A model generated the notes under the pieces. It ran no database searches, was not told the origin of the DNA, and saw only the letters and a program-made list of their open reading frames with translations. A program made the translations under genes and the position numbers. This document shows positions 14,347 to 64,000 of a stretch of DNA of 64,000 nt, in pieces (position 1 is the first letter of the stretch; every line of letters begins with the position of its first letter). Origin of the DNA: Candidatus Doudnabacteria bacterium (lineage in GTDB: Bacteria; Patescibacteriota; Doudnabacteria; UBA920); the NCBI GenBank assembly GCA_038203095.1, contig JBBREH010000002.1, positions 5,904 through 69,903 on the forward strand, given 5' to 3'.

Positions 14347-14480
14347 TTATTAACCACTAATCACAAATTAAATTATCCACAAATCACAAATAAGAACAAA
14401 TACTGCAAATCTATAAATTTGCCTATTTGCATCTCAGTGATTTGTGAGTATTTGTGTGATTGGTAATTTGTGGAGAACTT

Positions 14481-34246: not shown

Positions 34247-34622
34247 AAACAAGGACAAATACCCAATAATTTTAGTACATTTTCCGGAAATTGACAAGGT
34301 TGATATTTGTAATTAAACAGACTTAAATTAGATTTTTTTAACACAGCCCGCTTTGAAGCCTTTAGCGACGGCGTAGCTGACAAAACCCAAGCCTGCCCGG
34401 AACACTAGGCAACCAATCCCACCAAAAGTCTTTGGTCGGGTTATTTTTTTGTATTTTTTTTCGAGTGCCTTTTGTGCTAGCATACTAGTACGCTAAAACG
34501 AAAAAGGATTTTCAATCCAAATATTAAAATTACTCGGCCAAAGGGTTGAACCATTTTTATTTAAAATTTTAAAACATCCGATGTTGGCCCATAAATCGGC
34601 CGCCACAAGCTACAAGCTTCCC

Positions 34623-36535: not shown

Positions 36536-36560
36536 AGGCGGAAAAACTTTAACTAAATTT

Positions 36561-37617: not shown

Positions 37618-39468
37618 ATGAAAAAAATCATATTTATGCTTGCATTCATAGCCCTCGCAATGCCTTTTGCCAGGGCGCGAGCGGCGGTACATCCGTCCGG
37701 AGCTAATATTAAGACACAGGACGGCACAATTTATTTTATTGGCGCAGACGGCCAAAAACGGCCATATACTTCGGCCGGAGCTTTTTTGTCTTATGGACTC
37801 AATGCTTTTAACAACGTTGTCGACGCAAGCGCAGAGGACAACGCTTTACCCAGCGGTTCATTTATCCCCCCGCAAGACGGCAAAATTATTTGTTCAGACA
37901 GAGGCGGGGACAAAGGCACCTGCTATCTCATTTCTCAAAGCGTAAAAGTCGGCTTTCCCACCGCGGCCATTTTTACCGGCCAAGGCTTTAACTTTAAAAA
38001 TGCTTTGCGAGGCGACACTTCCTTTTTAGCCTACAATTCCAACACCCAAACTGAATCGGAAGCACATCGACCGGGAGTTTTGGTAAATAAAGGTGGCACA
38101 ATTTATTTGGTGGGTTCCCAGGGGCTTTTGGGTATTCCGAGCGTGCAAACTTTCCAGTCCTGGGGCTACAGTTTTAATGATGTAGTCTTAGCCAATTCGG
38201 CAGATAAAGCTCTGCCGACAAGTGGAATAATGCCGACTCATTCCGCGGGCCTACTCAGCCCGTTAGGCCAAAATTTATCCTCCTCACCAAGTCCGGCGAC
38301 AAATCCATCGCCAATGCCAACACCTAATCTAACCCCCAGCCCCGCCGCGCAGATAGTTTACGCGGTTAACACCACCACCCCGCAAGGCACTGTGGAAATA
38401 ACCGTGGACAGCGCATCTCCTTCAGCCCAGCAACTACCAATGTCCAAAAAAGGCGCAGTATTTTACGCGGTGAATTTTAAAGAAACCTCCGGCAACGAAG
38501 CGGTTAATATTAAAGGCCTGACAATAACTGCGCGGGTAACCGGCGGTATTACCAACGGTAATGGCGTAGCCAATACCGCTTACAATACTTTAAAAAATTT
38601 AAGCTTGGTTAACGGCTCAACTGTAATTAGCCGCGCCTCTTTTTCCGCGTCAACTCCGCCCCGTGAAGGTGCCGGAACGCAAACTTATGAAATAGATTTT
38701 AAAACCGGTTCGCCTTTAAATTTTCAAATTCCGGCCAGCGGCACTGTCACTCTAACATTAAAAGCCGACATTAGTGATTGGGCAGCGGGCGCGGCGACTA
38801 ATTCCGTATGGCAATTTTCGATTAACACAACTGCAGACGCCACATTGATTGGCCAAAACAGTAACTCCAACCTCACGCCCATTGTCACTAACGCAGCGGC
38901 TTCCGCCTTAAGCACCATTATAAAACAACCGTTAACTTTTAACCCTGTTACCAGCACCCCGGCCGGGAAAAACTTTGCCTCTGTAATTGCAGAGGGTATG
39001 CGCAACACCCAAGAAAAGGTCGGCATTTTCAATGCCATAAGCCCTTCTACCACTCTGCTTTTAAATTCCATCACCCTGTCACAAGCTGGCACCGCACTGC
39101 CAACAGGAACAAGTTCAGCGGTTAGCTACTACGTTTATGATTCACTTATTGGTTACTCCCAGCCCGTTGGTATTGGCACGCTAAGCGGCAGTGGTTCGGT
39201 AACAATTAATTTAAGCTTAAATTCTGCGCTCAACAAAGGTGTTAATGTTCCGACAGATGGTAGTGAGTACTTGGTCATAGCAGCCGACACAACAAATTTT
39301 AGTCTTTGCTACCCGGGCAATAACTGTACAGCCTACGGATATTCTTTAAGCCTGTCCGGCTGGCAATACAGCGACCCGGCTGCGCCGGGAGTAATCTCCA
39401 CCGGACCCTTTGCGCCTGACATTGCCAAAACCGCAGTTTACCCGGGCGGTGTGGGCAGAAGTTATTAA
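37618..39468 (+). CDS. Large secreted surface protein with three N-terminal ~50-aa repeats and S/T/P/N-rich C-terminal region
   Basis: Signal peptide MKKIIFMLAFIALAMPFARA; repeats GTIYFIGADGQKRPYTSAGAFLSYGLN / GTIYLVGSQGLLGIPSVQTFQSWGYSF. Confidence 0.5.
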   Translation: MKKIIFMLAFIALAMPFARARAAVHPSGANIKTQDGTIYFIGADGQKRPYTSAGAFLSYGLNAFNNVVDASAEDNALPSGSFIPPQDGKIICSDRGGDKGTCYLISQSVKVGFPTAAIFTGQGFNFKNALRGDTSFLAYNSNTQTESEAHRPGVLVNKGGTIYLVGSQGLLGIPSVQTFQSWGYSFNDVVLANSADKALPTSGIMPTHSAGLLSPLGQNLSSSPSPATNPSPMPTPNLTPSPAAQIVYAVNTTTPQGTVEITVDSASPSAQQLPMSKKGAVFYAVNFKETSGNEAVNIKGLTITARVTGGITNGNGVANTAYNTLKNLSLVNGSTVISRASFSASTPPREGAGTQTYEIDFKTGSPLNFQIPASGTVTLTLKADISDWAAGAATNSVWQFSINTTADATLIGQNSNSNLTPIVTNAAASALSTIIKQPLTFNPVTSTPAGKNFASVIAEGMRNTQEKVGIFNAISPSTTLLLNSITLSQAGTALPTGTSSAVSYYVYDSLIGYSQPVGIGTLSGSGSVTINLSLNSALNKGVNVPTDGSEYLVIAADTTNFSLCYPGNNCTAYGYSLSLSGWQYSDPAAPGVISTGPFAPDIAKTAVYPGGVGRSY

Positions 39469-39631: not shown

Positions 39632-39683
39632 GTAGCGTGCCCATTTATGGGCGTTTCCTGGACACCGATTACGGCCACGCTAC
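39632..39683 (+). repeat. Family D double-hairpin element copy 1 (GTAGCGTG-CCCATTTATGGGCG-...-CACGCTAC)
   Basis: 22-nt identity with copies at 62743..62794 and 60133..60186. The ORFs 39622..39825 and 39526..40023 over it are spurious. Confidence 0.7.
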
Positions 39684-42351: not shown

Positions 42352-42513
42352 AGGACTTACGCCTTTGGTCGAGTACGAGGCATTTTGCGAGGATTTTTGG
42401 AGACGTAGTTTGACTACGGCGACAAAAACCGCAGCAAAATAACGAAGTAATCGGCCAAACCCCTTGTGGGTTTCATCAATATTTTAAATATTTAGATGAA
42501 AGGCGTAAGTCCT
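42352..42513 (+). repeat. Family A element copy 2
   Basis: TIR AGGACTTACGCC/GGCGTAAGTCCT; core conserved with copy 1; 3' hairpin ttcatc-aatattttaaatatt-tagatgaa differs from copy 1. Confidence 0.7.
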
Positions 42514-42609: not shown

Positions 42610-44325
42610 TTGATTTCTAACCATATGAATCAATCTCAAAAACCTGTAACCTTAATAATTCTTGACGGCTGGGGATACCGCGAGGGCAAGGAGCATAACG
42701 CCATTTTGGAGGCGCAAACGCCGTTTTTTGACCATTTGTGGCAAAACTATCCCCACACCTTGCTTAACGCCAGCGAACAGCACGTGGGCTTGCCGGGAGG
42801 CACTATTGGCAACAGCGAAGTTGGCCATATGACTATGGGTGCGGGGCGGGTGATAGATACCGATTTGGTCAGAATATCAAAAGCAATGGAGTCCGGCGAA
42901 TTTAACACCAACCCGGCTTTTGCCGCGCTTTTTGAACACGTAAAAAATAACCATTCAACTTTGCATGTAATGGGTTTGGTGAGTGATGGAGGGGTGCACA
43001 GCCACCGAGAACATTTGCACGGCTTTTTAACCGCGGCCAAAGAAGCGGGCATAGAAAAAGTTGCCATTCACGCTTTTACGGATGGGCGGGATGTGGCGCC
43101 GCAGAGCGGGGGGAAATATTTGCAGGATTTGGAAAAGGTTATTGCCAATTTGGGCATAGGCCACATTGCCACCGCCTCGGGCAGATATTTTGCCATGGAC
43201 CGCGATAAAAATTGGCATCGCACCAAACTTGTGGAAGACGCGATTTTTGAGGGTATAGGCAAAATGTCCCTTGCAAATAAACCGTCCGATGTTATTAAAG
43301 AGCTTTATAAAACAGGGGAGTTGGATGAGTTGCTTGAACCCCTAATTTTTTTGGACGACAAAGGCAAGGCTATGCCGGTCCAAAAAAATGACGGCATTTT
43401 CTTTTTTAATTTTAGAAGCGATAGACCTCGCCAGCTAACGCAAAAAATTGTCGAGCGCGCCAAAAAACATAACTTGTATTTCGTAACGCTAACGGAATAC
43501 GATCCCGCGCTTGAAAGCGTAGTGGCGTTCCCGCCAAATAAAATAGAGACTACTTTAGCCGCGGAAATTAGCCAAGCCGGCCTGACTCAGTCCCATATTG
43601 CCGAAACCGAAAAATACGCGCACGTAACTTACTTTTTTAACGGCGGCAAACAGGAACCGCATAAAAATGAACATCACTTTTTAATAGAAAGCCGGCGCGA
43701 CATAAAAACGCACGACGAAGCGCCGGAAATGCGCGCGAGAGAGATTGCCGATAAATCCATTGAACGGCTAAACGCCGGCGACGACTTTCTGGTAATTAAC
43801 TTTGCCAACGCCGATATGGTCGGACATACAGCTAATAAACCTGCAATTATTACTGCCGTAGAAACCGTGGACCGCGAGCTAAAGCGGGTTGTCGATGTTG
43901 TACTGGCCAAAGGCGGCATCGCCCTAATTACCGCCGACCACGGCAACGCCGAACTAAATTTTGATGCCTCAACCGGCCACAAACACACCGCGCACACACT
44001 GAACCAAGTCCCGTTTATAATTGCTGAAAAAAGTGGAAAGTGGGTAGTGAGTAGTGAAAAGTCGAAAACCATCAGCGTGCCCCCTCCTCTCCCTACCGAA
44101 GGTCCGACGAAGTCCGCCTTAGGCGGACGAAGTTGGATGGGAGAGGACGTCGCCTCAGCGACAGGTGAGGGTGCAGTTTTCCCCTCCCTTGATGGGAGGG
44201 GCGAGGGGAGGGTGACTCTCAACTCTTCAAGAAGCTTAGCCGATATTGCCCCGACTACCCTAGCCCTAATGCAAATAAAAAAACCGTCCGCAATGACGGG
44301 GGAGAGTTTGATTGTTTCTGATTAA
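42610..44325 (+). CDS. gpmI: 2,3-bisphosphoglycerate-independent phosphoglycerate mutase with ~60-aa in-frame GC-rich insertion near the C-terminus
   Basis: ILDGWG, GNSEVGHMT, ADHGN motifs. Insert ...EKSGKWVVSSEKSKTISVPPPLPTEGPTKSALGGRSWMGEDVASATGEGAVFPSLDGRGEGRVTLNSSRS precedes the conserved LADIAPT..L.L..I.KP..MTG.SLI C-terminus. Confidence 0.9.
   Translation: MISNHMNQSQKPVTLIILDGWGYREGKEHNAILEAQTPFFDHLWQNYPHTLLNASEQHVGLPGGTIGNSEVGHMTMGAGRVIDTDLVRISKAMESGEFNTNPAFAALFEHVKNNHSTLHVMGLVSDGGVHSHREHLHGFLTAAKEAGIEKVAIHAFTDGRDVAPQSGGKYLQDLEKVIANLGIGHIATASGRYFAMDRDKNWHRTKLVEDAIFEGIGKMSLANKPSDVIKELYKTGELDELLEPLIFLDDKGKAMPVQKNDGIFFFNFRSDRPRQLTQKIVERAKKHNLYFVTLTEYDPALESVVAFPPNKIETTLAAEISQAGLTQSHIAETEKYAHVTYFFNGGKQEPHKNEHHFLIESRRDIKTHDEAPEMRAREIADKSIERLNAGDDFLVINFANADMVGHTANKPAIITAVETVDRELKRVVDVVLAKGGIALITADHGNAELNFDASTGHKHTAHTLNQVPFIIAEKSGKWVVSSEKSKTISVPPPLPTEGPTKSALGGRSWMGEDVASATGEGAVFPSLDGRGEGRVTLNSSRSLADIAPTTLALMQIKKPSAMTGESLIVSD
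44075..44215. repeat. GC-rich palindromic (RPE-like) insertion inside gpmI. Contains a CCCCTCCC-loop-GGGAGGGG-C-N-AGGGGAGGGT module nearly identical to one inside fmt.
   Basis: Hairpins cctctccc/gggagagg, gtccgcc-tta-ggcggac, gtcgc-ctca-gcgac, cccctccc-ttgat-gggagggg. Compare 56849..56880. Confidence 0.65.
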
Positions 44326-48713: not shown

Positions 48714-49991
48714 ATGGAACCACTAGCCAATAAAATCCGCCCAACATCGCTAAACGAATTTGTCGGGCAACAACATTTGGTGGGGGAAGGCAAACCTTTA
48801 AGACAGGCGATGGAAAATCGTCATCTTTTTTCTTTTATTTTATGGGGACCACCCGGGGTGGGCAAGACCACGCTGGCGCGGATTTACGCTAACGCCATGG
48901 GCGCGGATTACTTTGAACTGTCCGCTGTGTCCGCGGGCAAAGACGATATTAGAAAAATAATTTCAAATGACGCCCTGCCGGCTGGCGAAGAAATACCAAA
49001 AAAGAAACCAAAAGTAATATCGGCATATAATTTACCAAATGCGCTTTCATTGGATAGATTTAAAGAGTCAATTAATAAGTTAAATTCGGACCAAGACAAA
49101 CAGCCGATAAATCGGCTAACTACAGACGGGGGCAAACCAAAAATTTTATTTTTAGACGAAATCCACCGTTTTAACAAAGCTCAGCAGGACTTTTTGCTTC
49201 CGTATGTGGAAACGGGAAAACTGACTCTCATCGGCGCCACCACAGAGAATCCGTCATTTGAAGTTATTTCCGCTTTGCTTTCGCGCTGCCGGGTATTTGT
49301 ACTCAATGAATTAACAGCGGAAGAAATGCGCGCAGTAATCAGTCAAACTAAAATCGAGATGGCTGATGATGCAAAAGAGTGGCTAATTGCCATGGCCAAT
49401 GGCGACGCGCGCGCGGCCATAACCATGCTGGAAAACACCTTAAGTTTGTACCGCCAAATTACGGTTGAAAATTTAAAAAACGCACTCCAATCCAAACACC
49501 TGCGCTACGATAAAAAGGGCGAGGAACATTACAATATTATTTCAGCTTTTATAAAATCGATGAGAGCTTCACAGCCCGACGCGGCGCTCTACTATTTAGC
49601 CAGAATGGTGGAAGCGGGGGAGGATCCAAAATTCATTGCCCGTAGGATGGTGGTGTTTGCCAGCGAAGATGTCGGCCTTGCCCAGCCAACCGCCTTGGTT
49701 GTTGCCAATGCCGTGTTTGAAGCCTGTCAAAAAATTGGCTACCCTGAATGCGCTATCAATCTTGCCCACGGTGCAGCATATCTCTCACAGTCTAAAAAAG
49801 ACCGCTCCGTCTACAACGCCTTACGGTCTGCCCAGGCAGATGTAGAGGCGCTCGGCAATTTACCCACCCCTCTTAAACTGCGAAACGCACCCACCAAATT
49901 AATGAAAAGTCTCGGCTATGGTGAGGGTTACGAAAAATATGATAATAATGATTATTTTCCCGAGGAGTTAAAAGGAAAAAAATATTTGTGA
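48714..49991 (+). CDS. rarA: Replication-associated recombination protein A (RarA/MgsA) with ~55-aa insertion between Walker A and B; ends with TGA
   Basis: GPPGVGKTT (Walker A), ILFLDEIHRFNK (Walker B/sensor), ARMVEAGEDP C-terminal domain. Confidence 0.85.
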   Translation: MEPLANKIRPTSLNEFVGQQHLVGEGKPLRQAMENRHLFSFILWGPPGVGKTTLARIYANAMGADYFELSAVSAGKDDIRKIISNDALPAGEEIPKKKPKVISAYNLPNALSLDRFKESINKLNSDQDKQPINRLTTDGGKPKILFLDEIHRFNKAQQDFLLPYVETGKLTLIGATTENPSFEVISALLSRCRVFVLNELTAEEMRAVISQTKIEMADDAKEWLIAMANGDARAAITMLENTLSLYRQITVENLKNALQSKHLRYDKKGEEHYNIISAFIKSMRASQPDAALYYLARMVEAGEDPKFIARRMVVFASEDVGLAQPTALVVANAVFEACQKIGYPECAINLAHGAAYLSQSKKDRSVYNALRSAQADVEALGNLPTPLKLRNAPTKLMKSLGYGEGYEKYDNNDYFPEELKGKKYL

Positions 49992-49996
49992 TATAA

Positions 49997-50158
49997 TAGA
50001 CTTGTTGCTTAATAATTTTTCGCCCAAAATGTGTCCTTTCGCCAAAACCTTGTTAAAAATTTTTTCGCTTAACTTAGGTTAAACATCAAAATTTTTAGCT
50101 GCGGCCTTGTCAGAAATAACACATTTTAGATCAAAAAAGTTATTTAACAACAAGTCTA
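49997..50158 (-). mobile_element. Family B MITE copy 3 (inverted orientation)
   Basis: The reverse complement aligns end-to-end with 53683..53843 (TIR TAGACTTGTTGTTAAATAACTTTTTT). Read-through of its TIR gives the spurious MSEITHFRSKKLFNNKS N-terminus of ORF 50107. Confidence 0.7.
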
Positions 50159-50166
50159 ATTTATTC

Positions 50167-53545: not shown

Positions 53546-53682
53546 AGTACGGACTGAATACGGATATACGGAGGGAGTACTTGAGCATTTTGAATTTCGT
53601 ATATCCGTATGCTCCCTCTCGGTACTTCCGTAAAGAATCTTAAGGTGGTCGATCTTAAGACAGGTAACAAAGATAAAATAAT

Positions 53683-53843
53683 AGACTTATTGTTTAATAA
53701 CTTTTTTGATTCAAAATCTGGTATTTCAGACAAAACCGATGTTTAAAATTTTGATGTTTAACCTAAGTTAAGCGGAAAAATTTTAAACAAGGTTTTGACG
53801 AAATAACAGATTTTAGGCGAAAAATTATTAAACAACAGGTCTA
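53683..53843 (+). mobile_element. Family B MITE copy 2
   Basis: TIRs TAGACTTATTGTTTAATAACTTTTTT / AAAAATTATTAAACAACAGGTCTA. The spurious ORF 53524..53733 (MSEIPDFESKKLLNNKS) arises from its TIR. Confidence 0.7.
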
Positions 53844-53908
53844 GTAATCAAAATTAAAATAAATGTTTTGCGGTTCATAAATTTTAGCCGCAAAATGAAA
53901 GGATAAAA

Positions 53909-54724: not shown

Positions 54725-54857
54725 AACATCAAAATTTGTTTTGATTGACTGTCTCATCCGCCTCCGGCGGACAATTTTTGTCCAAAGAGCCCATTCGGCA
54801 ACAGTTCCAATAAAATGGCGCGAAATTTGTGGTAAAGGTTTTGTTTTATCCTAAACA

Positions 54858-56118: not shown

Positions 56119-57117
56119 TCAACGGTTTAGCGAAGAACCTATAAAATCCTTATACCCGTTTAAAAACTCTGTAATTGAAACCTCATTTTTACCAGCTAAC
56201 TGTAGCCGGTTGATTTTTAATTTGGTATTGTTGCCGCAGATAACAACACCATCAGCAATCACAGTTCCCGGGTCTAAATTTCTGTAGTTTTCTGTAGTGT
56301 CTCCATTCTGTAGTTCTGTAGTAATGCATTCTGTTATTTTTAAATTTTGTCCCTTCCAAGTTGTCCAAATTCCCGGCCAAATATAAAAGGCGCGGAACTG
56401 GTTATAAATTTCGGTTGCCGATTTATTCCAATCAACTTTCCCGTCCGCTTTACTAACAATCTTGCAGTAACTGACACTGTCTTCGTCCTGGGGCAGAGGA
56501 GTAATTTTACCCGAAACATAATCTGAAATTGTTTGATTGATTATGTTTGCCGACCTGCGCGCCAATTTATCGGAAAGTGTAAAAAAATTATCGTCCGGAT
56601 CAATGTTTACAATTTCCTGCGTCAGCAAAAGCCCGTCGTCCACATTTTTGTCCAAAAGAAAAATTGATGTCCCAGTCTGCTCATCGCCGTTAAGCAGCGC
56701 GGCCTGTATAGGCGAAGCGCCGCGGTATTTGGGCAACACGGAAAAATGGACGTTAATAGTTTTGTACTTTGGGGCGCTGATTATGTCCATAGGCAAAATT
56801 TTGCCATAAGCCACTACAACAAAAAGCTCAACACCGGCGGGTCCCATTCCCCTCCCGTCAGGGGAGGGGCTAGGGGAGGGTAAACAAAGATTTTTAAGTT
56901 GCCCCAAAAACTCCCGATTATCTTTTACATTTTCCGGTTTAAATGTCAAAAGGCCTAAATCCGCAGCCAATGCCGAAACCGGACTCTCCTCCATTTCCTG
57001 CCTGCGGCCAACCTTAACATCGGGCGTAGTAACCACGGCCGCAATTTCATGCTCCTTGCGCAAAGCCTCCAAAATGGGCAAGGCAACGTTTGATGTGCCA
57101 AAAAATACTAATTTCAT
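56119..57117 (-). CDS. fmt: Methionyl-tRNA formyltransferase with 18-aa in-frame GC-rich insertion (CLPSPSPSPDGRGMGPAG)
   Basis: MKLVFFGTS...AVVTTPD, HFSVLPKYRGASPIQ, C-terminal domain. The insert lies between ...QLKNL and VELFVVVAYGKILP. Confidence 0.85.
   Translation of the reverse strand: MKLVFFGTSNVALPILEALRKEHEIAAVVTTPDVKVGRRQEMEESPVSALAADLGLLTFKPENVKDNREFLGQLKNLCLPSPSPSPDGRGMGPAGVELFVVVAYGKILPMDIISAPKYKTINVHFSVLPKYRGASPIQAALLNGDEQTGTSIFLLDKNVDDGLLLTQEIVNIDPDDNFFTLSDKLARRSANIINQTISDYVSGKITPLPQDEDSVSYCKIVSKADGKVDWNKSATEIYNQFRAFYIWPGIWTTWKGQNLKITECITTELQNGDTTENYRNLDPGTVIADGVVICGNNTKLKINRLQLAGKNEVSITEFLNGYKDFIGSSLNR
56849..56880. repeat. GC-rich palindromic module CCCCTCCC-gtca-GGGGAGGGG-CT-AGGGGAGGG inside fmt (same module as in gpmI at 44178-44213)
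   Basis: Near-identical 35-40 nt between the two genes. Confidence 0.65.
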
Positions 57118-57308
57118 CTACAAAAAATCTTACAAATCTACAAATGACTACAAATCTCTGTAACCATATTAATACAATTATACTGTTTCTATAGCAGGTT
57201 GACAAAACTCTCTCTCTGATATTTTTAGGAGTCGCCCGGCGCCAGTTATATACGGACGATTTTTCGTCATTGGGACGAAAAAGCAACTGGCAAACAGAAG
57301 GGGGCTAA

Positions 57309-57470
57309 ATGGAGTTCAGCTCAACCGGATGGTACTCGCAACACGGAGCATTCATAAAAAGGATGCAGGCCTTCGCAGACGAAGGCTGGGATATAGTCAA
57401 TGTCATAAGCTCCGGAAACGGCAAAGTCTGCGCCTTTTTCACAAGGGTGAAACAGGGCGCAAGCCAGTAA
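57309..57470 (+). CDS. Small DUF4177-like protein (53 aa)
   Basis: RBS GAAGGGGG; MEFSSTGWYSQHGAFIKRMQAFADEGWDIVNVISSGNGKVCAFFTRVKQGASQ has the EGWxxVxV...G.....F.R pattern of DUF4177; followed by a terminator. Confidence 0.4.
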   Translation: MEFSSTGWYSQHGAFIKRMQAFADEGWDIVNVISSGNGKVCAFFTRVKQGASQ

Positions 57471-57484
57471 AATCATGCCGTACC

Positions 57485-57528
57485 CAAGCATCTAAGGTCG
57501 AAGGATCTTAGATGCTTGTATTTTTGTA
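57485..57528 (+). terminator. Rho-independent terminator caagcatctaag-gtcgaaggatc-ttagatgcttg + TATTTTTGT
   Basis: Perfect 12-bp stem plus T-run. Confidence 0.55.
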
Positions 57529-57660
57529 GTGTGCTCGTTCGAGTCTGAGCCTGAGGGCTCATCCCTCAAAGTCGAAGACCGATTTATCGACGATACTGTA
57601 ACGCTCATAAATAGGCACGCTACGGCTATCAATCGGACAAATGCAGGCCAATGGCCTGCG

Positions 57661-58224
57661 CTACATCCTAGACATTATCTTCCTCAAAACTTCCGCCTCC
57701 ACCCGGCAATCTACCAACGCATCGTGTAGCTGATTTTTATCTACATTAATTTTTAACTTTTTTATTAAATATTCCAAACCAAACCCGGAAAAATCTTTTT
57801 TGGATTTAAGTTGATTTTTTAGTCCCAAGTGGCCAAAAAAGAGTGGCCACAGGTCAAAGTAATGATAGTCAAAAGCGTATTTAACTCCGGCGCGTTCATA
57901 AGCGTCCAGCAAAAATCGCTTATCGTTAAAACCTACGTAGAACGCCTGAATCACGTTATGGCCAAAAGTTTTATTGAATTTTTTTATAACCAATTTTAAA
58001 CTCGGCGCGGACTTAAGTGTGTCTAACGAAATTTTATTAACTGCCATGGACTTTGGGTCTCGGCTGTGCCACTTGGCGGGCTTAACATAGCTGGAAAAAT
58101 GCTTTTTCTCCTTTAAAGTTTTTTTGTCCAACAAAACCGCCGCGAGCTGAATAATCTCGTGCTTATTGGGATTAAGCCCTGTCATTTCAAGGTCTATGAG
58201 TAAGATGTTTCGTTTAAAATCCAT
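57661..58224 (-). CDS. DEDDh-type 3'-5' exonuclease (DnaQ/oligoribonuclease-like), catalytic motifs intact
   Basis: Exo I DLEMTGL, Exo II ...GFNDKRF.., Exo III HDALVDC. Confidence 0.7.
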   Translation of the reverse strand: MDFKRNILLIDLEMTGLNPNKHEIIQLAAVLLDKKTLKEKKHFSSYVKPAKWHSRDPKSMAVNKISLDTLKSAPSLKLVIKKFNKTFGHNVIQAFYVGFNDKRFLLDAYERAGVKYAFDYHYFDLWPLFFGHLGLKNQLKSKKDFSGFGLEYLIKKLKINVDKNQLHDALVDCRVEAEVLRKIMSRM

Positions 58225-58299
58225 AAGTTAGTAGGCAGTGCGCAGTGGATAGTGGTCAGTTACTAATCACTGCACACTATTCACTATTCACTTGCTAGC

Positions 58300-58836
58300 T
58301 TAAACTTCTTTAATTATTCTTCTAAACACCTCTGCCTCCAGCCTAACTTTTTCCATAGCGTCAAAGGGATTTTTTTGCTTGAGTTTAAAATAATCCAAAA
58401 ATGTGTGGAAGGTAGGCATTTTTTTAAGCCCGTAGTTTAAAGTATAAATATAGCCCAAGGTCCACAGCTGTACAATATGAGGGTCGTAATTAAAGCCAAT
58501 TGCGGCCTTTTTAAAGGCATTTCTTAGAAACCAGACACTCTGGAAACTGTTGGTGGAAAGCAGTAAGTTTTGGCCAAATTTTTTGTGGAAGTTTTTAACT
58601 GCATCATAAATTTTTGGGCTCTTCCTTAAAGTGTCGTAATTAGTATTCAGTAATTTCGCGTGCTCATTAATTACACTGTCTAAAAAACTTATTTTTATAT
58701 ACGTATTAAAATTATCTTTTTCCAGCAAATTATCTTTGTCTAGCAGAACCGCGGATAGCTGAATTATGGAATCCTTGTCCGGGTCCTGCCCGGTAGTTTG
58801 GATTTCAAAAAATAGGAGATCTTTAATAAATTTCAT
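58300..58836 (-). CDS. DEDDh-exonuclease-like paralog with degenerate active-site motifs (probably inactive)
   Basis: Aligns with the upstream paralog, but Exo I is FFEIQTTG and Exo III is FDAMEKV (catalytic H/D replaced). Confidence 0.5.
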   Translation of the reverse strand: MKFIKDLLFFEIQTTGQDPDKDSIIQLSAVLLDKDNLLEKDNFNTYIKISFLDSVINEHAKLLNTNYDTLRKSPKIYDAVKNFHKKFGQNLLLSTNSFQSVWFLRNAFKKAAIGFNYDPHIVQLWTLGYIYTLNYGLKKMPTFHTFLDYFKLKQKNPFDAMEKVRLEAEVFRRIIKEV

Positions 58837-58919
58837 TTGTTCACAAATCACTAATGGTGCAAATGGGAGACAAATCAGGAATTTGCAGTATTTGTTCCCA
58901 TCTGTGATTAGTGGATAAT

Positions 58920-59432
58920 TTAATTTTTTGCTTTTTTCCAAACCTTAACCACATCTTCACCCTGCGTGTACTTTTTAATTAAATCAATAATCAATACCCC
59001 ATTTATGTGGTCAATTTCATGCTGAGCCACACGCGCAATCCAGCCGTCATCGGAAAACTTTATTATTTTACCCTCGGCGTTCTGCGCCTCAACCGTAACC
59101 TTCTTGGAACGTTTAACCATCCCAAAGACCCCCGGAATAGAAAGACATCCTTCCTCAATTTCGGTCTTCCCAAACCCTTTGCTTGTCACCTTGGGATTAT
59201 ACAAAGCCAGTAAAGGTACGCCATTTTTTTCCAAATTGACAATAATTAGTTTAACCGATTTTCCCACCTGCGGTCCGGCCAAACCAATGCCGTCTGCCTT
59301 GCGCACAGTGTCTATCATATCAGCCGTCAGCTTTTTTATTTCCTTGGACAAAGGAAAAACCACCGGCTCGGTCGGATCGCGTAAAACTTTGTTGGGATAA
59401 GTTAAAATCGGCAAAATCATATCTGTAGGCAT
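58920..59432 (-). CDS. def: Peptide deformylase
   Basis: GIGLAGPQVG, EGCLSIPG, QHEIDHINGVL metal-binding motifs. Confidence 0.85.
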   Translation of the reverse strand: MPTDMILPILTYPNKVLRDPTEPVVFPLSKEIKKLTADMIDTVRKADGIGLAGPQVGKSVKLIIVNLEKNGVPLLALYNPKVTSKGFGKTEIEEGCLSIPGVFGMVKRSKKVTVEAQNAEGKIIKFSDDGWIARVAQHEIDHINGVLIIDLIKKYTQGEDVVKVWKKAKN

Positions 59433-59446
59433 CCGCAGATCCGGAT

Positions 59447-59770
59447 TTAATCCGCAGGTCCGGATAGTGATTGATTATTTTTTTCTAAATTATTCTTTTT
59501 AATTAAATACGCAAACAACCTTCCGGGCGTTTTTACGCTTTTACTTTCCATTATTTGCCCGGCAAGGTTCCTTAAATAATTATGATCATACAAAACCGCC
59601 ATCTTCAAATAAAACGCAAAATGCTTTTTGTCATTTAATCTTTGCGATAGTTCATCTGCCAGCAGGTGGGCAGGGGAGTGAAGGTGGGGATTAACCTTGG
59701 TTTTGGCTGATGATTTGCCCGCTTTTAACCTAGCAATATTTCCTAAAGATTCCATAAAAATATTATACAT
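59447..59770 (-). CDS. Hypothetical protein
   Basis: ORF only. Confidence 0.3.
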   Translation of the reverse strand: MYNIFMESLGNIARLKAGKSSAKTKVNPHLHSPAHLLADELSQRLNDKKHFAFYLKMAVLYDHNYLRNLAGQIMESKSVKTPGRLFAYLIKKNNLEKNNQSLSGPAD

Positions 59771-59801
59771 TAAACTTTAAAAATAGGCTATAATTAAAAT
59801 T

Positions 59802-61190
59802 ATGAAAGTAGATATTGCCGGACTAAAAATTGACGCGACCACCAAAATAGATTTACTGGATGCTGTTTTGGCGCGGATTAAAAATAATCAAAAAACCTTT
59901 GTCACCACGCCGTATTCAGAGTTTTTGTACCGAGCTTTTTTGGATCCAAAATTGCTGGAAACTTTTAACCGAGCCGATTTTGCCGTAGCCGACGGGATTG
60001 GGATTTTTTGGGCAAAAAGATATTTAGAAATTCCTCTTTCGGCCAAAAGCTTCTGGGGCAAAATTTTGCAGGCGTTTTGGCAGATTATTTACAGCTTGGC
60101 TGCGATAATCTTGTACTCCAGATTTATTTATGATAGCGTGCCCATTCACGGGCGTCTCGAATCGCCGATAAATCGGCACACTACACAGCCTGATATACCG
60201 GAGAAAATCGTCGGTGCGGATTTAATTTGGGACTTAGCCAAATTGGCGGCTAATAATAACTTATCAATCTATCTTTTGGGTGGCTTTGGTAACACTCCGG
60301 AACTTGCGGCGGAAAAACTAACGACTTGTTATATTCACAGCCATAAACGAAGCAAGTCGCTTAAAATTGCGGGGTGGTCAAATAAAAATCCGAATGACTC
60401 ATCGGTGATTGCGGATGTCAATTCATCTGTGGCAGATATTTTGCTGGTTGCTTACGGACCTGTGAACCAAGAAAAATGGATTGTAGATAATTTACCCAAG
60501 TTAAATATTAAACTCGCGATTGGCGTAGGCGGGAGCCTTGATTACCTCGCGGGCATTAAATCCGCGCCGCCAAAATTTATTCGCTACGGCGGACTGGAAT
60601 GGCTTTGGCGGCTAATTACCCAACCATACCGCTTGAAAAGAATTTGGCAGGCAACTTTTGGATTAATAAGCAAAACTTTACTTCACAAAATTTATCAAAT
60701 TATGCCACTTAGAAAAAATGCCGTATGCGTTATTTTGAATAAAAATAAATCCATTCTTGTTTGCAAGCGAAACCCCAAACCTCAAGAAACCGACGCGGTC
60801 GGCGAACCGGCTGCCAAATTTCTAAACTATTGGCAACTCCCCCAAGGCGGAGTTGGTGAAGATTTGGATATAATAAGCGGCGCAAGAAGGGAAGCGCTTG
60901 AGGAAGTTAGTTTAAATGATTTGGATCTTCTTTACGTTTCACAAAAACATTATGACTACCAATTTCCTTTAAGCTGGCAAAGAATCTTTAAAAAGAATTA
61001 CCGATACCGCGGGCAAAGCCAAAATATTATTTATTTCAAATTTTCTGGAAAGGATGAAGAAGTAACAGTAGATCGAAAAGAATTTGTAGACTACCGGTGG
61101 GTAGAGGCAAACCAACTTTTCAAAATCATCCATCCCGAGAAACTTAACTTAACCAAAATTGTTGTTGATGATTTGAAACAACTGGTTTAA
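59802..61190 (+). CDS. Fusion protein: WecB/TagA/CpsF-family (GT26) glycosyltransferase + C-terminal NUDIX hydrolase. Carries an in-frame family D repeat at 60133..60186.
   Basis: N-terminal ...FVTTPYSEFLYRAFLDPKLLETFNRADFAVADGIGIFWA (GT26). C-terminal Nudix box LPQGGVGEDLDIISGARREALEEVSL. Confidence 0.6.
   Translation: MKVDIAGLKIDATTKIDLLDAVLARIKNNQKTFVTTPYSEFLYRAFLDPKLLETFNRADFAVADGIGIFWAKRYLEIPLSAKSFWGKILQAFWQIIYSLAAIILYSRFIYDSVPIHGRLESPINRHTTQPDIPEKIVGADLIWDLAKLAANNNLSIYLLGGFGNTPELAAEKLTTCYIHSHKRSKSLKIAGWSNKNPNDSSVIADVNSSVADILLVAYGPVNQEKWIVDNLPKLNIKLAIGVGGSLDYLAGIKSAPPKFIRYGGLEWLWRLITQPYRLKRIWQATFGLISKTLLHKIYQIMPLRKNAVCVILNKNKSILVCKRNPKPQETDAVGEPAAKFLNYWQLPQGGVGEDLDIISGARREALEEVSLNDLDLLYVSQKHYDYQFPLSWQRIFKKNYRYRGQSQNIIYFKFSGKDEEVTVDRKEFVDYRWVEANQLFKIIHPEKLNLTKIVVDDLKQLV
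60133..60186 (+). repeat. Family D element copy inside a coding sequence, in-frame (encodes DSVPIHGRLESPINRHTT)
   Basis: ATAGCGTGCCCATTCACGGGCG-TCTCGAAT-CGCCGATAAATCGGC-ACACTACAC versus the 62743..62794 copy (reverse complement) GTAGCGTGCCCATTTATGGGCG-ACTAAGATA-GCCGATAAATCGGC-GCGCTACAC. Confidence 0.7.
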
Positions 61191-61219
61191 AATGATAAGA
61201 TTAATATAATTAGACGTTT

Positions 61220-62746
61220 ATGATCAACCCAATAAAAACCGTCCGTACACGCTTTGCGCCCAGCCCCACCGGCTTTGTGCACATTGGTAGTTTGCGCACT
61301 GCGCTATTTAGTTTTTTATATGCCCGCAAAAATCATGGAGCGCACATTTTACGTATAGAGGACACCGACCAAAATAGGCTGGTAGAAGGCGCGGCGGAAA
61401 ATTTAGTTAAAGTCATGCGTGAGATGGGCATAGAATTTGACGAGGGCTACTACTTAGCCGATGACGGATCACTAAAAGAAAGAGGAAATTTTGGCCCCTA
61501 TTTACAATCAAAGCGTTTGGATTTATACCAAAAACACGCGACGGAACTCGTAGAAAAGGGGAGTGCATATTATTGCTTTTGCAGCCAGGAAAGACTGGAT
61601 GAACTTCGAAAAGAACAAACGGCTTTAAAAAAGCCGGCAATGTATGACAGACACTGCAAAAATTTATCCGAAGATGAAATTAAATTGAAACTGATTGAAA
61701 TTAAGGGGCAGAAAAAAAACCCCGTAGTGCGCTTTGCCATTCCACAGGAAGGTCAAACCACAATCCACGATTTAATTTACGGTGATATTACTTATGAAAA
61801 TAAAAACCTAGACGACCAGGTGATTTTAAAATCTGACGGTTTCCCCACCTACCATCTGGCTGTGGTCGTTGACGACCACTATATGCAAATTAGCCACGTT
61901 ATTCGCGGTGAAGAATGGATACCTTCTACGCCCAAACATTTGCTAATTTACAAAGCTTTAGGCTGGGAGCCGACGCAGTTTGCCCACCTGCCTCTAATAT
62001 TAAACCCGGATAAATCCAAACTTTCCAAGCGCCAGGGCGACGTGGCGGTGGAAGATTTTTTAAAGCACGGGTATTTAAAAGAGGGCTTGTTAAATTTTGT
62101 GGCTTTTTTGGGCTGGAACCCTAAAACAGACCAAGAGCTTTTTTCGCTTACAGATTTAATAGAGCAATTCGATTTTAGCAAAGTCAATAAAGCCGGCGCC
62201 GTATTTGACGACAACAAGCTGGACTGGTTTAACTCACAATATATTAAAAAACTGACGCCGACCGATTTAGCAAACCTGCTCAAGCCTTATTGGCAGCAAT
62301 CGGGAATTAGTTTTCAAAATTTTTCCGATGAATATCTTGCCACTGTTGCCAAACTTGAACAGGAACGCTTAAAAAAACTTTCCGAGATAGGGGAGAGGAC
62401 TGCTTACTTTTTTAAAGCTCCTGATTATGATGCTAAATTACTCATTTGGAAGAAATCAGACGCTGGGGATGCAAAACAAAAATTGTCTGAGCTTGCAAAT
62501 TTACTATCAACTCTGACTGATGATAAATTTTCCAACTCCAATCTAGAAACGGAAATCAAAAAATTTATTGCGGAAAAAAAATATGACAACGGCTCCGTTC
62601 TTTGGCCGCTAAGAACCGCGCTCACCGGCCAAGAAAAAAGCCCCGGCCCTTTCGAAGTTTGCGCCACGTTGGCTTTAGGCTTGGGCAAAAAAGAGGTCCT
62701 AAAACGTCTTGAGACAGCGGTTTCAAAATTGACAGTTGATGTGTAG
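61220..62746 (+). CDS. gltX: Glutamate--tRNA ligase
   Basis: RFAPSPTGFVHIGSLRTALF (HIGH), KLSKR (KMSKS), anticodon-binding C-terminus. Confidence 0.9.
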   Translation: MINPIKTVRTRFAPSPTGFVHIGSLRTALFSFLYARKNHGAHILRIEDTDQNRLVEGAAENLVKVMREMGIEFDEGYYLADDGSLKERGNFGPYLQSKRLDLYQKHATELVEKGSAYYCFCSQERLDELRKEQTALKKPAMYDRHCKNLSEDEIKLKLIEIKGQKKNPVVRFAIPQEGQTTIHDLIYGDITYENKNLDDQVILKSDGFPTYHLAVVVDDHYMQISHVIRGEEWIPSTPKHLLIYKALGWEPTQFAHLPLILNPDKSKLSKRQGDVAVEDFLKHGYLKEGLLNFVAFLGWNPKTDQELFSLTDLIEQFDFSKVNKAGAVFDDNKLDWFNSQYIKKLTPTDLANLLKPYWQQSGISFQNFSDEYLATVAKLEQERLKKLSEIGERTAYFFKAPDYDAKLLIWKKSDAGDAKQKLSELANLLSTLTDDKFSNSNLETEIKKFIAEKKYDNGSVLWPLRTALTGQEKSPGPFEVCATLALGLGKKEVLKRLETAVSKLTVDV

Positions 62747-62794
62747 CGCGCCGATTTATCGGCTATCTTAGTCGCCCATAAATGGGCACGCTAC
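62743..62794 (-). repeat. Family D element copy (reverse orientation) immediately after gltX
   Basis: See 39632..39683. The ORF 62763..62951 (-) is spurious. Confidence 0.7.
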
Positions 62795-62841
62795 GCCGAC
62801 AATTTTTGCCACATAAAGCCAACTCTGGTATAATATGTGTA

Positions 62842-64000
62842 ATGAAACGAGCATACGATACCAAAATTAAAATAATCACGGGGCTTTTATTTTTTGCCTT
62901 AATTTTTGGTCTGAAAAATAATCTTGCCTTCGCCGACGCGGCTTCCGACAAATTAGCAGCCAGCCAACAGAAGCTTTTTCAAATAAATCAACAAATTAAG
63001 AGCTACCAACAACAAATCGCAACAACCCAAAGCAAGGCCAGCACTTTAAAAAATGAAGTTTCTATATACAATAGTCAAATAGCTTCAACAGAGCTCCAAA
63101 TTCAGGCCAAGGAAACTCAAATTAGTGACGGCAATTTACAAATTACAAAAATCCAGGAAATCATTGACCTTAAAGTTCAAGAAATTGCAAACAATAAAAA
63201 GGTTTTAGGCCAATTAATTCTTGAGGCTAACCGCTTTGATGACCAGTACGCTTTAAGAACCGGACTAGGCAGTAGCAATCTGTCCGATTTTTTAGATCAA
63301 ATTCAATACGGTCAAAATTTACAGGGCAAAATTTATCAACTAATGGAAAAAATTAAAACTTTAAAAACCCAGCTGGAGGATCAGAAAAACGATTTGGAAA
63401 TTAAAGTTAAACAACTAGGGGAACTAAAAAGCCAACTGGAAATTACAAATAAATCGTTAAATGAAATTAAAAATCAAAAACAAAAATTATTTAATCAAAC
63501 CCAAGGGTTAGAAAAAAATTACCAAAAACTTTTGGCCTCAAGCAAACAGGATGCCGACAATTTACAAAAGGAAATTCAAGATTTAGACGCGCAAATAAGA
63601 GCAAAATTAGGCAAAAAAACCATTGTCGCGCAAAAAGGTGTTTTGGCATGGCCGATTGATGGCATACTAACCCAAGGCTATGGCAATACCGGTTTTACCT
63701 CTTTAGGCTATAATTTTCACAACGGAATTGACCTTGCCGGGCCTCCGGGGCAGGCAATTTATGCTGCCGCTGACGGCACAGTACTGTACACAGACCATTC
63801 AGACGCAAGTTTTGGCAACTGGGTGGCAGTCAAGCATAATATTTCCACAAAAAACGGTACCAGCCAAATTATTACTTTGTATGGACATATGACAAGTTTC
63901 AAAGTTTCCGTTGGGCAGAATCTTTCTCAGGGCGACTTAATTGGCTACGAAGGCAATACCGGTAACACCACCAAAAAACTTTACGGACCAGAAAGGGGAT
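62842..64000 (+). CDS. M23-family peptidoglycan metalloendopeptidase with N-terminal coiled coil (EnvC-like); 3' end beyond window
   Basis: Signal/TM, long Q/K-rich coiled coil, then HNGIDLAG...G.V....D......GNWVAVKH.....TLYGHM (HxxxD ... HxH-type M23 motifs). Confidence 0.7.
   Translation, partial: MKRAYDTKIKIITGLLFFALIFGLKNNLAFADAASDKLAASQQKLFQINQQIKSYQQQIATTQSKASTLKNEVSIYNSQIASTELQIQAKETQISDGNLQITKIQEIIDLKVQEIANNKKVLGQLILEANRFDDQYALRTGLGSSNLSDFLDQIQYGQNLQGKIYQLMEKIKTLKTQLEDQKNDLEIKVKQLGELKSQLEITNKSLNEIKNQKQKLFNQTQGLEKNYQKLLASSKQDADNLQKEIQDLDAQIRAKLGKKTIVAQKGVLAWPIDGILTQGYGNTGFTSLGYNFHNGIDLAGPPGQAIYAAADGTVLYTDHSDASFGNWVAVKHNISTKNGTSQIITLYGHMTSFKVSVGQNLSQGDLIGYEGNTGNTTKKLYGPERG

What the first reader, a model, noticed from the sequence alone, without database searches (positions are those of the whole stretch)
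60133..60186. Family D: 52-nt double-hairpin element in four copies, one in-frame inside the GT26-NUDIX gene
The unit has the architecture GTAGCGTG - CCCATTTATGGGCG (hairpin) - spacer - GCCGATAAATCGGC or CCGATTACGG (hairpin) - CACGCTAC, with an 8-bp TIR.
- Copies lie at 39632-39683 (+, intergenic), 62743-62794 (-, directly after gltX) and ~57585-57640 (-, degenerate).
- The copy at 60133-60186 sits in-frame inside the WecB/TagA-family gene, where it encodes ...DSVPIHGRLESPINRHTT... in a loop region.
- A chimeric fragment, ggcccataaatcggcc, lies at about 34590.
This is a second, independent case in the window of a palindromic element tolerated inside a coding region.
Basis: seen in the sequence. 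Interest (0 to 1): 0.65.

Follow-up and report, generated by a model that had tools for sequence, protein, structure and literature searches.

The report
REP doublet inside a Patescibacteria gene
The 52-base double hairpin is a real small mobile repeat (two inverted GTAG-tagged REP units) of the kind spread by RAYT transposases, here in a Patescibacteria genome, and one copy is translated as a disordered loop in an enzyme; the kind is already known.

Summary
The window has three 52-nt doublets (39632-39683, 60133-60184, 62743-62794) and one decayed doublet (about 57572-57623). The "chimeric fragment" at 34586 is a decayed singleton.

Each half is (T)GTAG, a 3-4 nt linker, then GCCCATTTATGGGC or GCCGATTTATCGGC. 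A doublet always joins one of each type, inverted, with GTAG outermost.

This is a GTAG-type REP head-to-head heterodimer (REPIN/BIME-like). In eight genomes with full-length rayT copies, mostly labelled Doudnabacteria, Saccharibacteria or Patescibacteria, a 137-aa RAYT gene (Y1_Tnp; closest solved structure E. coli TnpA_REP, 4ER8) is flanked by these same units. There are no target-site duplications. I found no RAYT in the window and could not examine the rest of its genome.

The in-gene copy is a lineage-specific insert of about 19 aa in a predicted disordered loop of the WecG-NUDIX protein. Other lineages carry unrelated palindromic inserts in that loop.

About a quarter of the copies sampled in related genomes sit in frame in real genes such as LeuRS, LepA, UvrC, ArgRS and GuaA. 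Intragenic GTAG REPs were described in 2013.

Verdict: a new member of a known kind, of moderate interest.

The parts
39632..39683 (+). Copy A. Intergenic REP doublet: a canonical left half GTAGCGTGCCCATTTATGGGC and a shortened right hairpin CCGATTACGG + CCACGCTAC. It lies 164 nt downstream of ORF 37618-39468.
   Evidence: As single-stranded DNA it folds to -11.1 kcal/mol, z -3.4, as two hairpins plus a closing stem.
60133..60184 (+). Copy B. REP doublet in frame in the WecG-NUDIX gene. It is diverged from the consensus: ATAG instead of GTAG, and loop ATTCAC instead of ATTTAT.
   Evidence: It folds weakly on the sense strand (-8.4 kcal/mol, z -1.56). It encodes residues of about 111-128.
59802..61190 (+). 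Host gene: a 462-aa fusion of a WecG/TagA-family glycosyltransferase and a NUDIX domain. It carries an insert of about 19 aa (residues about 111-130) in a variable loop.
   Evidence: Pfam PF03808 and PF00293. Alignment A1. Loop lengths in homologues. AlphaFold2 pLDDT 89.4 overall and below 50 at residues 118-121 and 124-130.
62743..62794 (-). Copy C. Near-consensus REP doublet directly after gltX. The TAG of its outer GTAG (62744-62746) is the gltX stop codon.
   Evidence: It folds to -15.7 kcal/mol, z -4.9. A promoter-like site lies at 62806-62834 just downstream.
57572..57623 (-). Copy D. Decayed doublet: its GTAG-proximal half has 2 mismatches and its partner half is eroded. It lies between two minus-strand genes.
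   Evidence: It has no stable fold (z +0.9).
49103..49123 (-). REP singleton GTAGTTAGCCGATTTATCGGC, in frame (QPINRLTT) in the RarA-like ORF 48714-49991. It sits at the end of a 47-aa region absent from E. coli RarA.
34586..34613 (+). Decayed singleton GGCCCATAAATCGGCC...AAGCTAC (mixed C/G type), just downstream of the minus-strand ORF 34623-35873.
   Evidence: On its own it is only weakly above chance (6 of 100 shuffles give a match).
61220..62746 (+). gltX (glutamyl-tRNA synthetase). Its stop codon lies inside copy C.
   Evidence: Pfam tRNA-synt_1c.

Best explanation
Family D is a family of GTAG-tagged repetitive extragenic palindromes (REPs) found in Doudnabacteria-type Patescibacteria.

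**Unit and doublet.** Each unit is (T)GTAG, a 3-4 nt linker and a 5-6 bp hairpin, either GCCCA-TTTA-TGGGC or GCCGA-TTTA-TCGGC. The 52-nt element is a head-to-head heterodimer of one unit of each type, with GTAG outermost and a short spacer between. That makes it a REPIN/BIME-like doublet.

**Relation to the transposase.** The doublet has the same layout as the two REPs that flank the 137-aa RAYT (HUH/Y1 tyrosine transposase) gene in related genomes. It looks like that cassette without the gene.

**Inferred mechanism.** The RAYT recognises the single-stranded hairpin and the 5' GTAG. It cuts and rejoins single-stranded DNA and so copies doublets to new sites in trans, without target-site duplication.

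**Where copies end up.** Most copies lie just downstream of genes. The few that land in a permissive protein loop, in one of the two stop-free frames, survive and are translated. The WecG-NUDIX copy is such a survivor. It adds about 19 residues of disordered loop. Its mutated GTAG (now ATAG) and weakened hairpin suggest it is old and no longer mobile.

**Shown:** sequence family, hairpin covariation, RAYT association in related genomes, absence of target-site duplications, lineage-specific insertion, predicted loop location.

**Inferred:** RAYT-mediated mobility, presence of a RAYT in this genome, translation of the insert, retained function of the protein.
For: - **Copies are real.** They are far above chance in the window.
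- **The unit is widespread.** The exact half-unit occurs in at least 98 stretches of the species-representative genome collection, mostly in Doudnabacteria and other Patescibacteria MAGs.
- **Doublet layout is constant.** All 45 doublets have GTAG outside, and every one listed pairs a C-type half with a G-type half. Spacers are 4-27 nt.
- **Local hairpins covary.** Pair 11-18 reads GC in 132 copies and CG in 81. Pair 10-19 reads CG in 208 and TA in 7. Pair counts favour two hairpins plus a closing stem over one long hairpin.
- **A RAYT gene goes with the units.** L068:2963-3436 matches Pfam Y1_Tnp at 29.7 bits (cut-off 23). It matches NCBIfam NF047646 REP_Tyr_transpos at E 4.9e-20, 71.9 bits. 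An array of these units lies upstream of it.
- **RAYT homologues are flanked on both sides.** Homologues in L093, L056, L091 and L085 were found by tblastn. The full-length genes are flanked on both sides by inverted units; the truncated L085 copy shows only the downstream one.
- **The flanking holds without REP-based selection.** RAYT loci fetched by protein sequence (L100, L102) have a unit 7-17 nt upstream and an inverted unit 0-8 nt downstream.
- **Closest solved structure.** The RAYT profile hits only E. coli TnpA_REP (4ER8) in the PDB, at E 1.2e-10. The HUH motif, Y115 and N119, which PMC3479197 names as catalytic, are aligned.
- **No target-site duplications.** The base before GTAG is T in 80% of units and C in 16%.
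- **The insert is lineage-specific.** It falls in a low-confidence coil.
- **In-frame copies occur in real genes elsewhere.**
- **All features have published precedent** for GTAG REPs: head-to-head heterodimers, TAG of GTAG used as a stop codon, intragenic dimers encoding 20-30 aa, and REPtrons (PMC3733652).
Against: - No RAYT gene lies in the 64-kb window (tblastn).
- I could not retrieve the rest of this genome, so a RAYT in the same genome is not shown.
- The NCBIfam RAYT score (71.9 bits) is just below the curated cut-off of 80.
- The 137-aa RAYT has only about 10 residues after the part aligned to E. coli TnpA_REP, against about 43 in the E. coli protein. That C-terminal extension contacts GTAG in E. 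coli, so recognition may differ.
- Mobility is inferred. No empty-site allele or recent identical copy was seen.
- The sequences used for pair counts were selected with a pattern that includes both stem sides.
Confidence: 0.85

Rival explanations
1. It is a classical MITE: a deletion derivative of a DDE-type insertion sequence, mobilised through its 8-bp terminal inverted repeats by cut-and-paste.
For: The element is small, has terminal inverted repeats GTAGCGTG/CACGCTAC, and is dispersed. A 5-nt direct repeat TGATA flanks the in-gene copy at 60131-60135 and 60191-60195 (read).
Against: The 45 doublets show no target-site duplication above chance at any length from 2 to 6. The only protein consistently next to the units is an HUH/Y1 transposase, not a DDE enzyme. 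The termini are the GTAG tag typical of REPs (PMC3733652).
Confidence: 0.03
2. It is primarily a host-selected functional motif, such as an mRNA 3'-end stabiliser or terminator, or a binding site for a nucleoid or topology protein. It would be kept for that role, with transposition irrelevant today.
For: The 21-mer is conserved across many species-level genomes. The hairpins covary. The intergenic window copies lie downstream of genes. Copy C abuts the gltX stop codon and precedes a promoter-like site. Such secondary roles are reported for E. coli REPs (summarised in PMC3733652 and PMC3479197).
Against: Copies occur in both orientations and in frame inside many unrelated genes. No T-tract terminator call falls on any copy, and no Rfam family matches. 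Decayed copies persist. Conservation is equally explained by co-evolution with a vertically inherited RAYT. This reading does not exclude the best explanation.
Confidence: 0.08
3. The in-gene copy is not tolerated: the WecG-NUDIX gene is an inactivated or decaying gene that only looks intact.
For: I ran no functional or expression test. The insert lies close to the start of the Pfam WecG core (match starts at residue 130).
Against: The full 462-aa frame is open through both domains. Conserved residues across the family are kept (invariant columns). The model is confident on both sides of the insert. About 15 of 80 homologues carry other inserts of 14-43 aa in the same loop. The conserved neighbourhood with gltX is kept in related loci.
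Confidence: 0.07
4. The copies are chance similarity or an assembly artefact.
For: None beyond the general risk that repeats are mis-assembled in MAGs.
Against: Shuffles give 0 expected matches. A second assembly is identical over 5171 nt. The same element occurs in dozens of other assemblies.
Confidence: 0.01

Closest known systems
GTAG-type REP families and their head-to-head dimers (Di Nocera et al. 2013, PMC3733652); E. coli BIMEs
   Same: Shares the GTAG tag at the outer end of a short hairpin and dimers with GTAG outside built from two different stem variants (heterodimers). Copies lie mostly downstream of ORFs. The TAG of GTAG supplies a stop codon. Some dimers sit inside genes and encode about 20 aa. 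RAYT genes are flanked by the same units.
   Different: A new sequence family in a lineage (Patescibacteria/CPR) for which I found no REP/RAYT report in the searched library. The unit is very short (a 5-6 bp stem with an A/T-rich loop). About a quarter of sampled copies are intragenic. I did not compare that fraction quantitatively with other REP families.
REPIN-RAYT systems (Bertels and Rainey 2011, PMC3116915; RAYT groups in PMC5581495)
   Same: An inverted REP doublet with a spacer is the apparent replicating unit. Spacer motifs are shared between genomes, for example GTCCTTGGATC and GTTCTAGATC. A small HUH/Y1 transposase gene sits between two REPs. The REP sequence is conserved across related species.
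   Different: I did not test whether the RAYT is single-copy or vertically inherited here. The doublet cannot form a perfect long hairpin, because two positions never pair. I did not determine which RAYT group it belongs to.
E. coli TnpA_REP (RAYT) bound to REP, PDB 4ER8 (PMC3479197)
   Same: It is the only solved structure hit by the RAYT profile (E 1.2e-10). The HUH histidines, catalytic Tyr (Y115) and N119 align. The DNA substrate is likewise a 5' GTAG plus a hairpin.
   Different: The Patescibacteria protein is 137 aa against 165 aa. It has only about 10 residues after the aligned part, so it largely lacks the C-terminal extension that contacts GTAG in E. coli. The hairpin here has no obvious bulge.
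Rickettsia palindromic elements (RPEs)
   Same: Palindromic repeats inserted in frame in essential genes of a reduced genome and translated as extra peptide segments.
   Different: According to PMC3733652, the short RPE-4 and RPE-6 are CGTC-tagged, CGTC REPs have no dedicated transposase, and RPE-1 is a longer insert. The element here is GTAG-tagged and RAYT-associated. There is no sequence relationship.
MITEs such as Correia or Nezha elements
   Same: Small, non-autonomous, with terminal inverted repeats, dispersed, and sometimes co-transcribed with genes.
   Different: No target-site duplications, and the associated enzyme is HUH/Y1, not DDE.

Membership tests
REP (GTAG superfamily) | A short palindromic unit ending in a conserved GTAG tetranucleotide at one end | tested here: met
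   Positions 1-4 read G, T, A, G in 219-223 of 224 units. A 5-6 bp stem follows. All window copies show it except ATAG in copy B.
REP (GTAG superfamily) | Hairpin maintained by selection (compensatory stem changes) | tested here: met
   Pair 11-18 reads GC in 132 copies and CG in 81. Pair 10-19 reads CG in 208 and TA in 7. No shuffle out of 500 reaches the observed pairing. Caveat: the sequences were selected with a pattern that includes both stem sides.
REP (GTAG superfamily) | Many dispersed copies per genome, mainly extragenic | tested here: inconclusive
   The window has 6 sites in 64 kb, 4 of them intergenic. In related loci 120 units are intergenic, 20 lie at ORF edges and 54 are inside ORFs.
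REPIN / BIME (REP doublet) | Two REPs in inverted orientation separated by a short spacer, recurring as a unit | tested here: met
   45 doublets with spacers of 4-27 nt, and related spacer motifs across genomes. Three intact doublets and one decayed doublet lie in the window.
REPIN-RAYT system / REPtron | A RAYT gene (HUH motif plus catalytic Tyr) flanked by the same REPs in inverted orientation | tested here: met
   Met in related genomes: L068, L093, L056 and L091 on both sides, L085 on the retained side. Also met in L100 and L102, which were fetched by protein sequence and not by REP pattern. HUH and Tyr align to 4ER8.
REPIN-RAYT system / REPtron | A RAYT present in the same genome as the REPs under study | not testable with these tools
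   None in the 64-kb window. The window's public record could not be retrieved; only a 5.4-kb Logan contig was returned. A RAYT was found in a MAG from a run with a neighbouring accession number (SRR19962012, GCA_038249015.1), but that is a different genome.
REPIN-RAYT system / REPtron | Transposition without target-site duplication (single-strand HUH chemistry) | tested here: met
   Flanking direct repeats of 2-6 nt are at chance level in 45 doublets. The chemistry itself was not tested.
MITE (DDE-mobilised) | Terminal inverted repeats plus target-site duplication, and a parent IS with a DDE transposase | tested here: not met
   Terminal inverted repeats are present, but there are no target-site duplications. 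The neighbouring transposase is Y1_Tnp.
Rickettsia palindromic elements / CGTC REPs | A CGTC terminal tag and RPE consensus sequences | tested here: not met
   The termini are GTAG/CTAC. The definition is taken from PMC3733652.
Known structured RNA family (Rfam) | A match to a curated covariance model | tested here: not met
   Only tRNAs are found in the window at gathering thresholds. Nothing is found at E up to 1 in 57100-63000.

The most novel reading that the evidence does not exclude
In Doudnabacteria-type Patescibacteria an old, probably vertically inherited REPIN-RAYT system may place an unusually large share of its copies (about a quarter) in frame inside essential genes, including aminoacyl-tRNA synthetases, LepA, UvrC, GuaA, RarA and WecG-NUDIX. 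Together with other palindromic families that hit the same loops, such elements would then be a major source of the lineage-specific peptide insertions seen in proteins of these reduced genomes.
Probability: 0.35. Interest if true: 0.6.

Novelty: new member of a known kind. Interest (0 to 1): 0.42.

Why it matters
- **Annotation.** The result explains a recurring unannotated repeat in Patescibacteria MAGs as a REP/RAYT system. It gives a simple rule: peptides such as SVPIYGR, VARPFMG, ADKSARY and PINRHAT inside conserved proteins are translated REP units, not native sequence.
- **Permissive loops.** Such inserts mark loops that tolerate insertion. The WecG-NUDIX loop has been hit independently by several palindromic families.
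- **Assembly.** The repeat helps explain why RAYT and REP regions often sit on short contigs.
- **Evolution.** If the high intragenic share holds genome-wide, these tiny genomes would be a good place to study how non-autonomous elements persist when there is almost no intergenic space.

Tried and rejected
**1. Finding the RAYT of the window's own genome.** None of these attempts worked.
- Cluster look-up gave no accession for the window protein.
- Look-ups by the WecG-NUDIX and gltX proteins returned only a 5.4-kb Logan contig.
- Two RAYT candidates turned out to come from other MAGs.

**2. Single long-hairpin model.** Rejected, because positions 11/36 and 18/29 never pair.

**3. MITE reading.** Rejected for lack of target-site duplications.

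**4. Known RNA family.** There are no Rfam matches.

**5. Intrinsic terminator.** The scan does not call any copy.

**6. CRISPR-like array.** I considered this because of the 46-nt spacing in L068. It is a REP cluster directly upstream of a RAYT gene, with mixed orientations.

**7. It is not found in the 120 best homologues.

**8. Literature.** A search for REP/RAYT in Patescibacteria or the CPR returned nothing relevant in the held library.

**9. A second RAYT-like ORF in L024** (a MAG labelled Deltaproteobacteria). It is a different, E. coli-like RAYT and is not next to these units.
Full report
**1. The observation**

- A 22-nt left-half pattern gives 5 matches at up to 3 mismatches, against 0.00 in shuffles.
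- The right-half pattern gives 6 matches.
- The 14-nt core GCCSATTTATSGGC gives 6 matches against 0.06 expected.

The copies are:
- A, 39632-39683 (+), intergenic.
- B, 60133-60184 (+), inside ORF 59802-61190.
- C, 62743-62794 (-).
- D, a decayed copy at about 57572-57623 (-).

Two further sites belong to the family. One is a singleton at 49103-49123 (-), in frame in a RarA-like ORF. The other is the "chimeric" fragment at 34586, which is followed by ...AAGCTAC and looks like a decayed singleton.

A Logan assembly of run SRR19962014 matches window 58830-64000 without a mismatch, so copies B and C are not peculiar to one assembler.

**2. Anatomy**

Each half of the element is GTAG, then a variable 3-nt linker and a G (CGTG, CGCG, TGTG, TTAG and others), then a small palindrome. 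The palindrome is either GCCCATTTATGGGC ("C-type") or GCCGATTTATCGGC ("G-type").

The two halves are inverted with GTAG outermost. I extracted 45 doublets from the window and 98 related loci. Every one listed pairs a C-type half with a G-type half. Spacers run from 4 to 27 nt, most often 10-11 nt, with recurring motifs such as GTCCTTGGATC and GTTCTAGATC.

Across 224 units, the third stem pair is G-C in 132 and C-G in 81. The second pair is C-G in 208 and T-A in 7. The third loop base varies T/C.

On 36 distinct doublets I compared two structure models.
- Two local hairpins plus a 7-bp closing stem: 96.9% of cells pair and no shuffle out of 500 does as well.
- One long hairpin: two positions are unpaired in all 36 sequences, and the model is no better than shuffles.

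One caveat applies: the sequences were collected with a pattern that includes both stem sides. That biases against double changes, not for them.

As single-stranded DNA, copies A and C fold well (z -3.4 to -4.9). The in-gene copy B folds weakly on the sense strand (z -1.56). Copy D does not fold.

**3. What it is**

The window comes from a Patescibacteria (CPR) genome of the Doudnabacteria type, judging from the homologues of its proteins.

Nearly all were in Doudnabacteria and other Patescibacteria MAGs.

In locus L068 a cluster of at least ten units lies directly upstream of a 157-aa ORF.
- It matches Pfam Y1_Tnp at 29.7 bits, above the cut-off of 23.
- It matches NCBIfam REP-associated tyrosine transposase at E 4.9e-20 and 71.9 bits, just under the cut-off of 80.

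tblastn finds 137-aa homologues in L093, L056, L091 and L085, and an internally deleted pseudogene in L052. It finds none in the window. The full-length genes have a unit a few bases upstream and an inverted unit a few bases downstream; the truncated L085 copy shows only the downstream one.

Those loci had been selected by the repeat itself, so I also fetched two RAYT loci by protein sequence (L100 and L102). They show the same layout: a unit 7-17 nt before the start and an inverted unit 0-8 nt after the stop. In L102 the upstream unit is C-type and the downstream one G-type, as in the doublets.

A profile of these proteins hits a single solved structure, E. coli TnpA_REP bound to a REP (4ER8), at E 1.2e-10. 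The HUH histidines, the catalytic Tyr115 and Asn119 named in PMC3479197 are aligned.

More than 7,000 database proteins match the profile. The closest are 137 aa long, and several carry the JGI name "REP element-mobilizing transposase RayT".

The doublets have no target-site duplications. The base before GTAG is T in 80% of units and C in 16%.

No Rfam family matches.

Taken together, this is a GTAG-type REP family forming head-to-head heterodimers. It is REPIN/BIME-like, and the cognate RAYT is found in related genomes.

**4. The in-gene copy**

The host gene encodes a 462-aa fusion of a WecG/TagA-family glycosyltransferase and a NUDIX domain. This fusion is common in Patescibacteria, where homologues are typically 437-446 aa.

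In the alignment the window protein reads RFIY-DSVPIHGRLESPINRHTTQPDIP-EKIVGADL. Most homologues read RWIK-SALP-EKIVGADL at the same place. The excess is about 19 aa.

Of 80 homologues with recognisable flanks:
- 62 have the short loop.
- About 15 have other inserts of 14-43 aa at the same place.
- None has the VPIHGR/PINRH peptide.

The DNA of two of those other inserts consists of unrelated, strongly self-complementary elements. One folds to -80.8 kcal/mol over 165 nt. The loop is therefore a permissive site that different palindromic families have hit independently.

An AlphaFold2 model built on the alignment is confident overall (mean pLDDT 89.4, pTM 0.84). It shows residues of about 111-137 as coil, with pLDDT below 50 at 118-121 and 124-130, between two well-predicted helices.

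Each half-unit has one closed frame, from TAG or TAA, and two open ones. Copy B uses the open frames SVPI(Y/H)GR and PINRH.

Copy B differs from the consensus at ATAG (for GTAG), at two loop/stem bases, and at CACACTAC. In E. coli each GTAG base matters for binding and cleavage (PMC3479197). I therefore infer that copy B is old and no longer a substrate.

A 5-nt repeat TGATA flanks copy B. Since the other doublets show no such duplications, I read it as coincidence.

**5. How general this is**

I made rough gene calls on the 98 loci and the window. They place 120 half-units in intergenic DNA, 20 at ORF edges and 54 inside long ORFs.

Nine of ten host ORFs checked have Pfam domains on both sides of, or around, the insert. 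They are LeuRS (with two doublets), an IleRS-type synthetase, LepA, UvrC, ArgRS, GMP synthase, PurH, an amidohydrolase and a PMT_2 glycosyltransferase.

In the window itself, the RarA-like protein carries a singleton at the end of a 47-aa segment absent from E. coli RarA.

The TAG of copy C's outer GTAG is the gltX stop codon.

**6. Comparison with what is known**

Di Nocera et al. 2013 (PMC3733652) already describe, for other bacteria:
- GTAG-tagged REPs.
- Head-to-head and tail-to-tail dimers, including heterodimers with different stems.
- GTAG termini that supply TAG stop codons.
- REP dimers inside genes encoding 20-30 aa, including tRNA synthetase and uvr genes.
- RAYT genes flanked by REPs.

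REPIN-RAYT biology is covered by PMC3116915 and PMC5581495.

I found no paper in the held library that links REP, REPIN or RAYT with Patescibacteria or the CPR.

The Patescibacteria RAYT is shorter than E. coli TnpA_REP and largely lacks its C-terminal extension.

**7. Limits**

- I could not show a RAYT in the window's own genome.
- Mobility, translation of the insert and retained enzyme activity are inferred.
- The intragenic share rests on crude ORF calls and on a truncated, pattern-selected sample.

**8. Verdict**

The element is a REP doublet of a RAYT-associated family, which makes it a new member of a known kind. Interest is moderate. The in-frame insertion has precedent, but its frequency in essential genes of these very small genomes may deserve a proper genome-wide count.

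Noticed in passing
window 56847-56881 (minus-strand fmt ORF 56119-57117); related copy at 44179-44213: A different G/C-rich palindromic element (…CCCTCCCCTAGCCCCTCCCCTGACGGGAGGGG…) is translated as about 15 extra residues (LPSPSPSPDGRGMGPAG) in methionyl-tRNA formyltransferase. Solved Fmt structures lack this segment.
   Followed up: partly
window 48966-49123 (ORF 48714-49991): The RarA-like AAA+ protein has a 47-aa segment just before Walker B that is absent from E. coli RarA (3PVS). Only its last 7 codons are the REP singleton. The origin of the rest is unexplained.
   Followed up: partly
window 62744-62746 and 62806-62834: The gltX stop codon is the TAG of the REP's GTAG. An 11/12 sigma-70-like promoter (TTGCCA-17-TATAAT, with TG) follows 12 nt after the doublet, ahead of the M23 peptidase gene.
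   Followed up: partly
L105 622-786; L104 724-819 (WecG-NUDIX homologues P0038 and P0045): The same protein loop carries unrelated palindromic inserts in other lineages. One is a 165-nt stretch that folds to -80.8 kcal/mol. About 15 of 80 homologues have some insert there.
   Followed up: partly
window 9286-9317, 36443-36544, 31370-31420, 4958-4993, 54742-54773: Another small palindrome family (TCCGCCAAAGGCGGA-like units, often in pairs) is dispersed through the window.
   Followed up: no
window 49994-50165 and 53675-53846; third copy 29391-29524: A 172-nt inverted repeat (85% complementary) brackets about 3.5 kb. A 134-nt relative lies 20 kb away. This could be the ends of a larger mobile element or a repeated regulatory region.
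   Followed up: no
window 14365-14410 and 58881-58926: A 46-nt inverted repeat (91% complementary). The second arm overlaps the junction of the def gene and the exonuclease-like ORF. Its meaning is unknown.
   Followed up: no
window 23384-23429 and 42414-42459: A 46-nt direct repeat, 93% identical, with copies 19 kb apart (CTACGGCGACAAA…).
   Followed up: no
L052 3145-3372: A RAYT pseudogene with an internal deletion that removes the HUH motif. It is still flanked by REP units.
   Followed up: partly
L068 2427-2968: At least ten REP units are packed into 550 nt upstream of a RAYT gene. They include three direct copies spaced 46 nt apart.
   Followed up: partly
L024, L031, L038, L057, L058, L060 (MAGs labelled Deltaproteobacteria, 40-44% GC): The same REP units and doublets occur on several contigs of MAGs not labelled Patescibacteria. 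This could be mislabelling, mis-binning or real spread beyond the phylum. Single hits in high-GC genomes (Mesorhizobium, Kerfeldbacteria and others) may be chance.
   Followed up: partly
L036 3405-3425: A single REP unit lies in frame (ADKSARYK) in a GlpX-like fructose-1,6-bisphosphatase ORF. A doublet lies 700 nt away, at that ORF's stop codon, just upstream of an aldolase gene.
   Followed up: no
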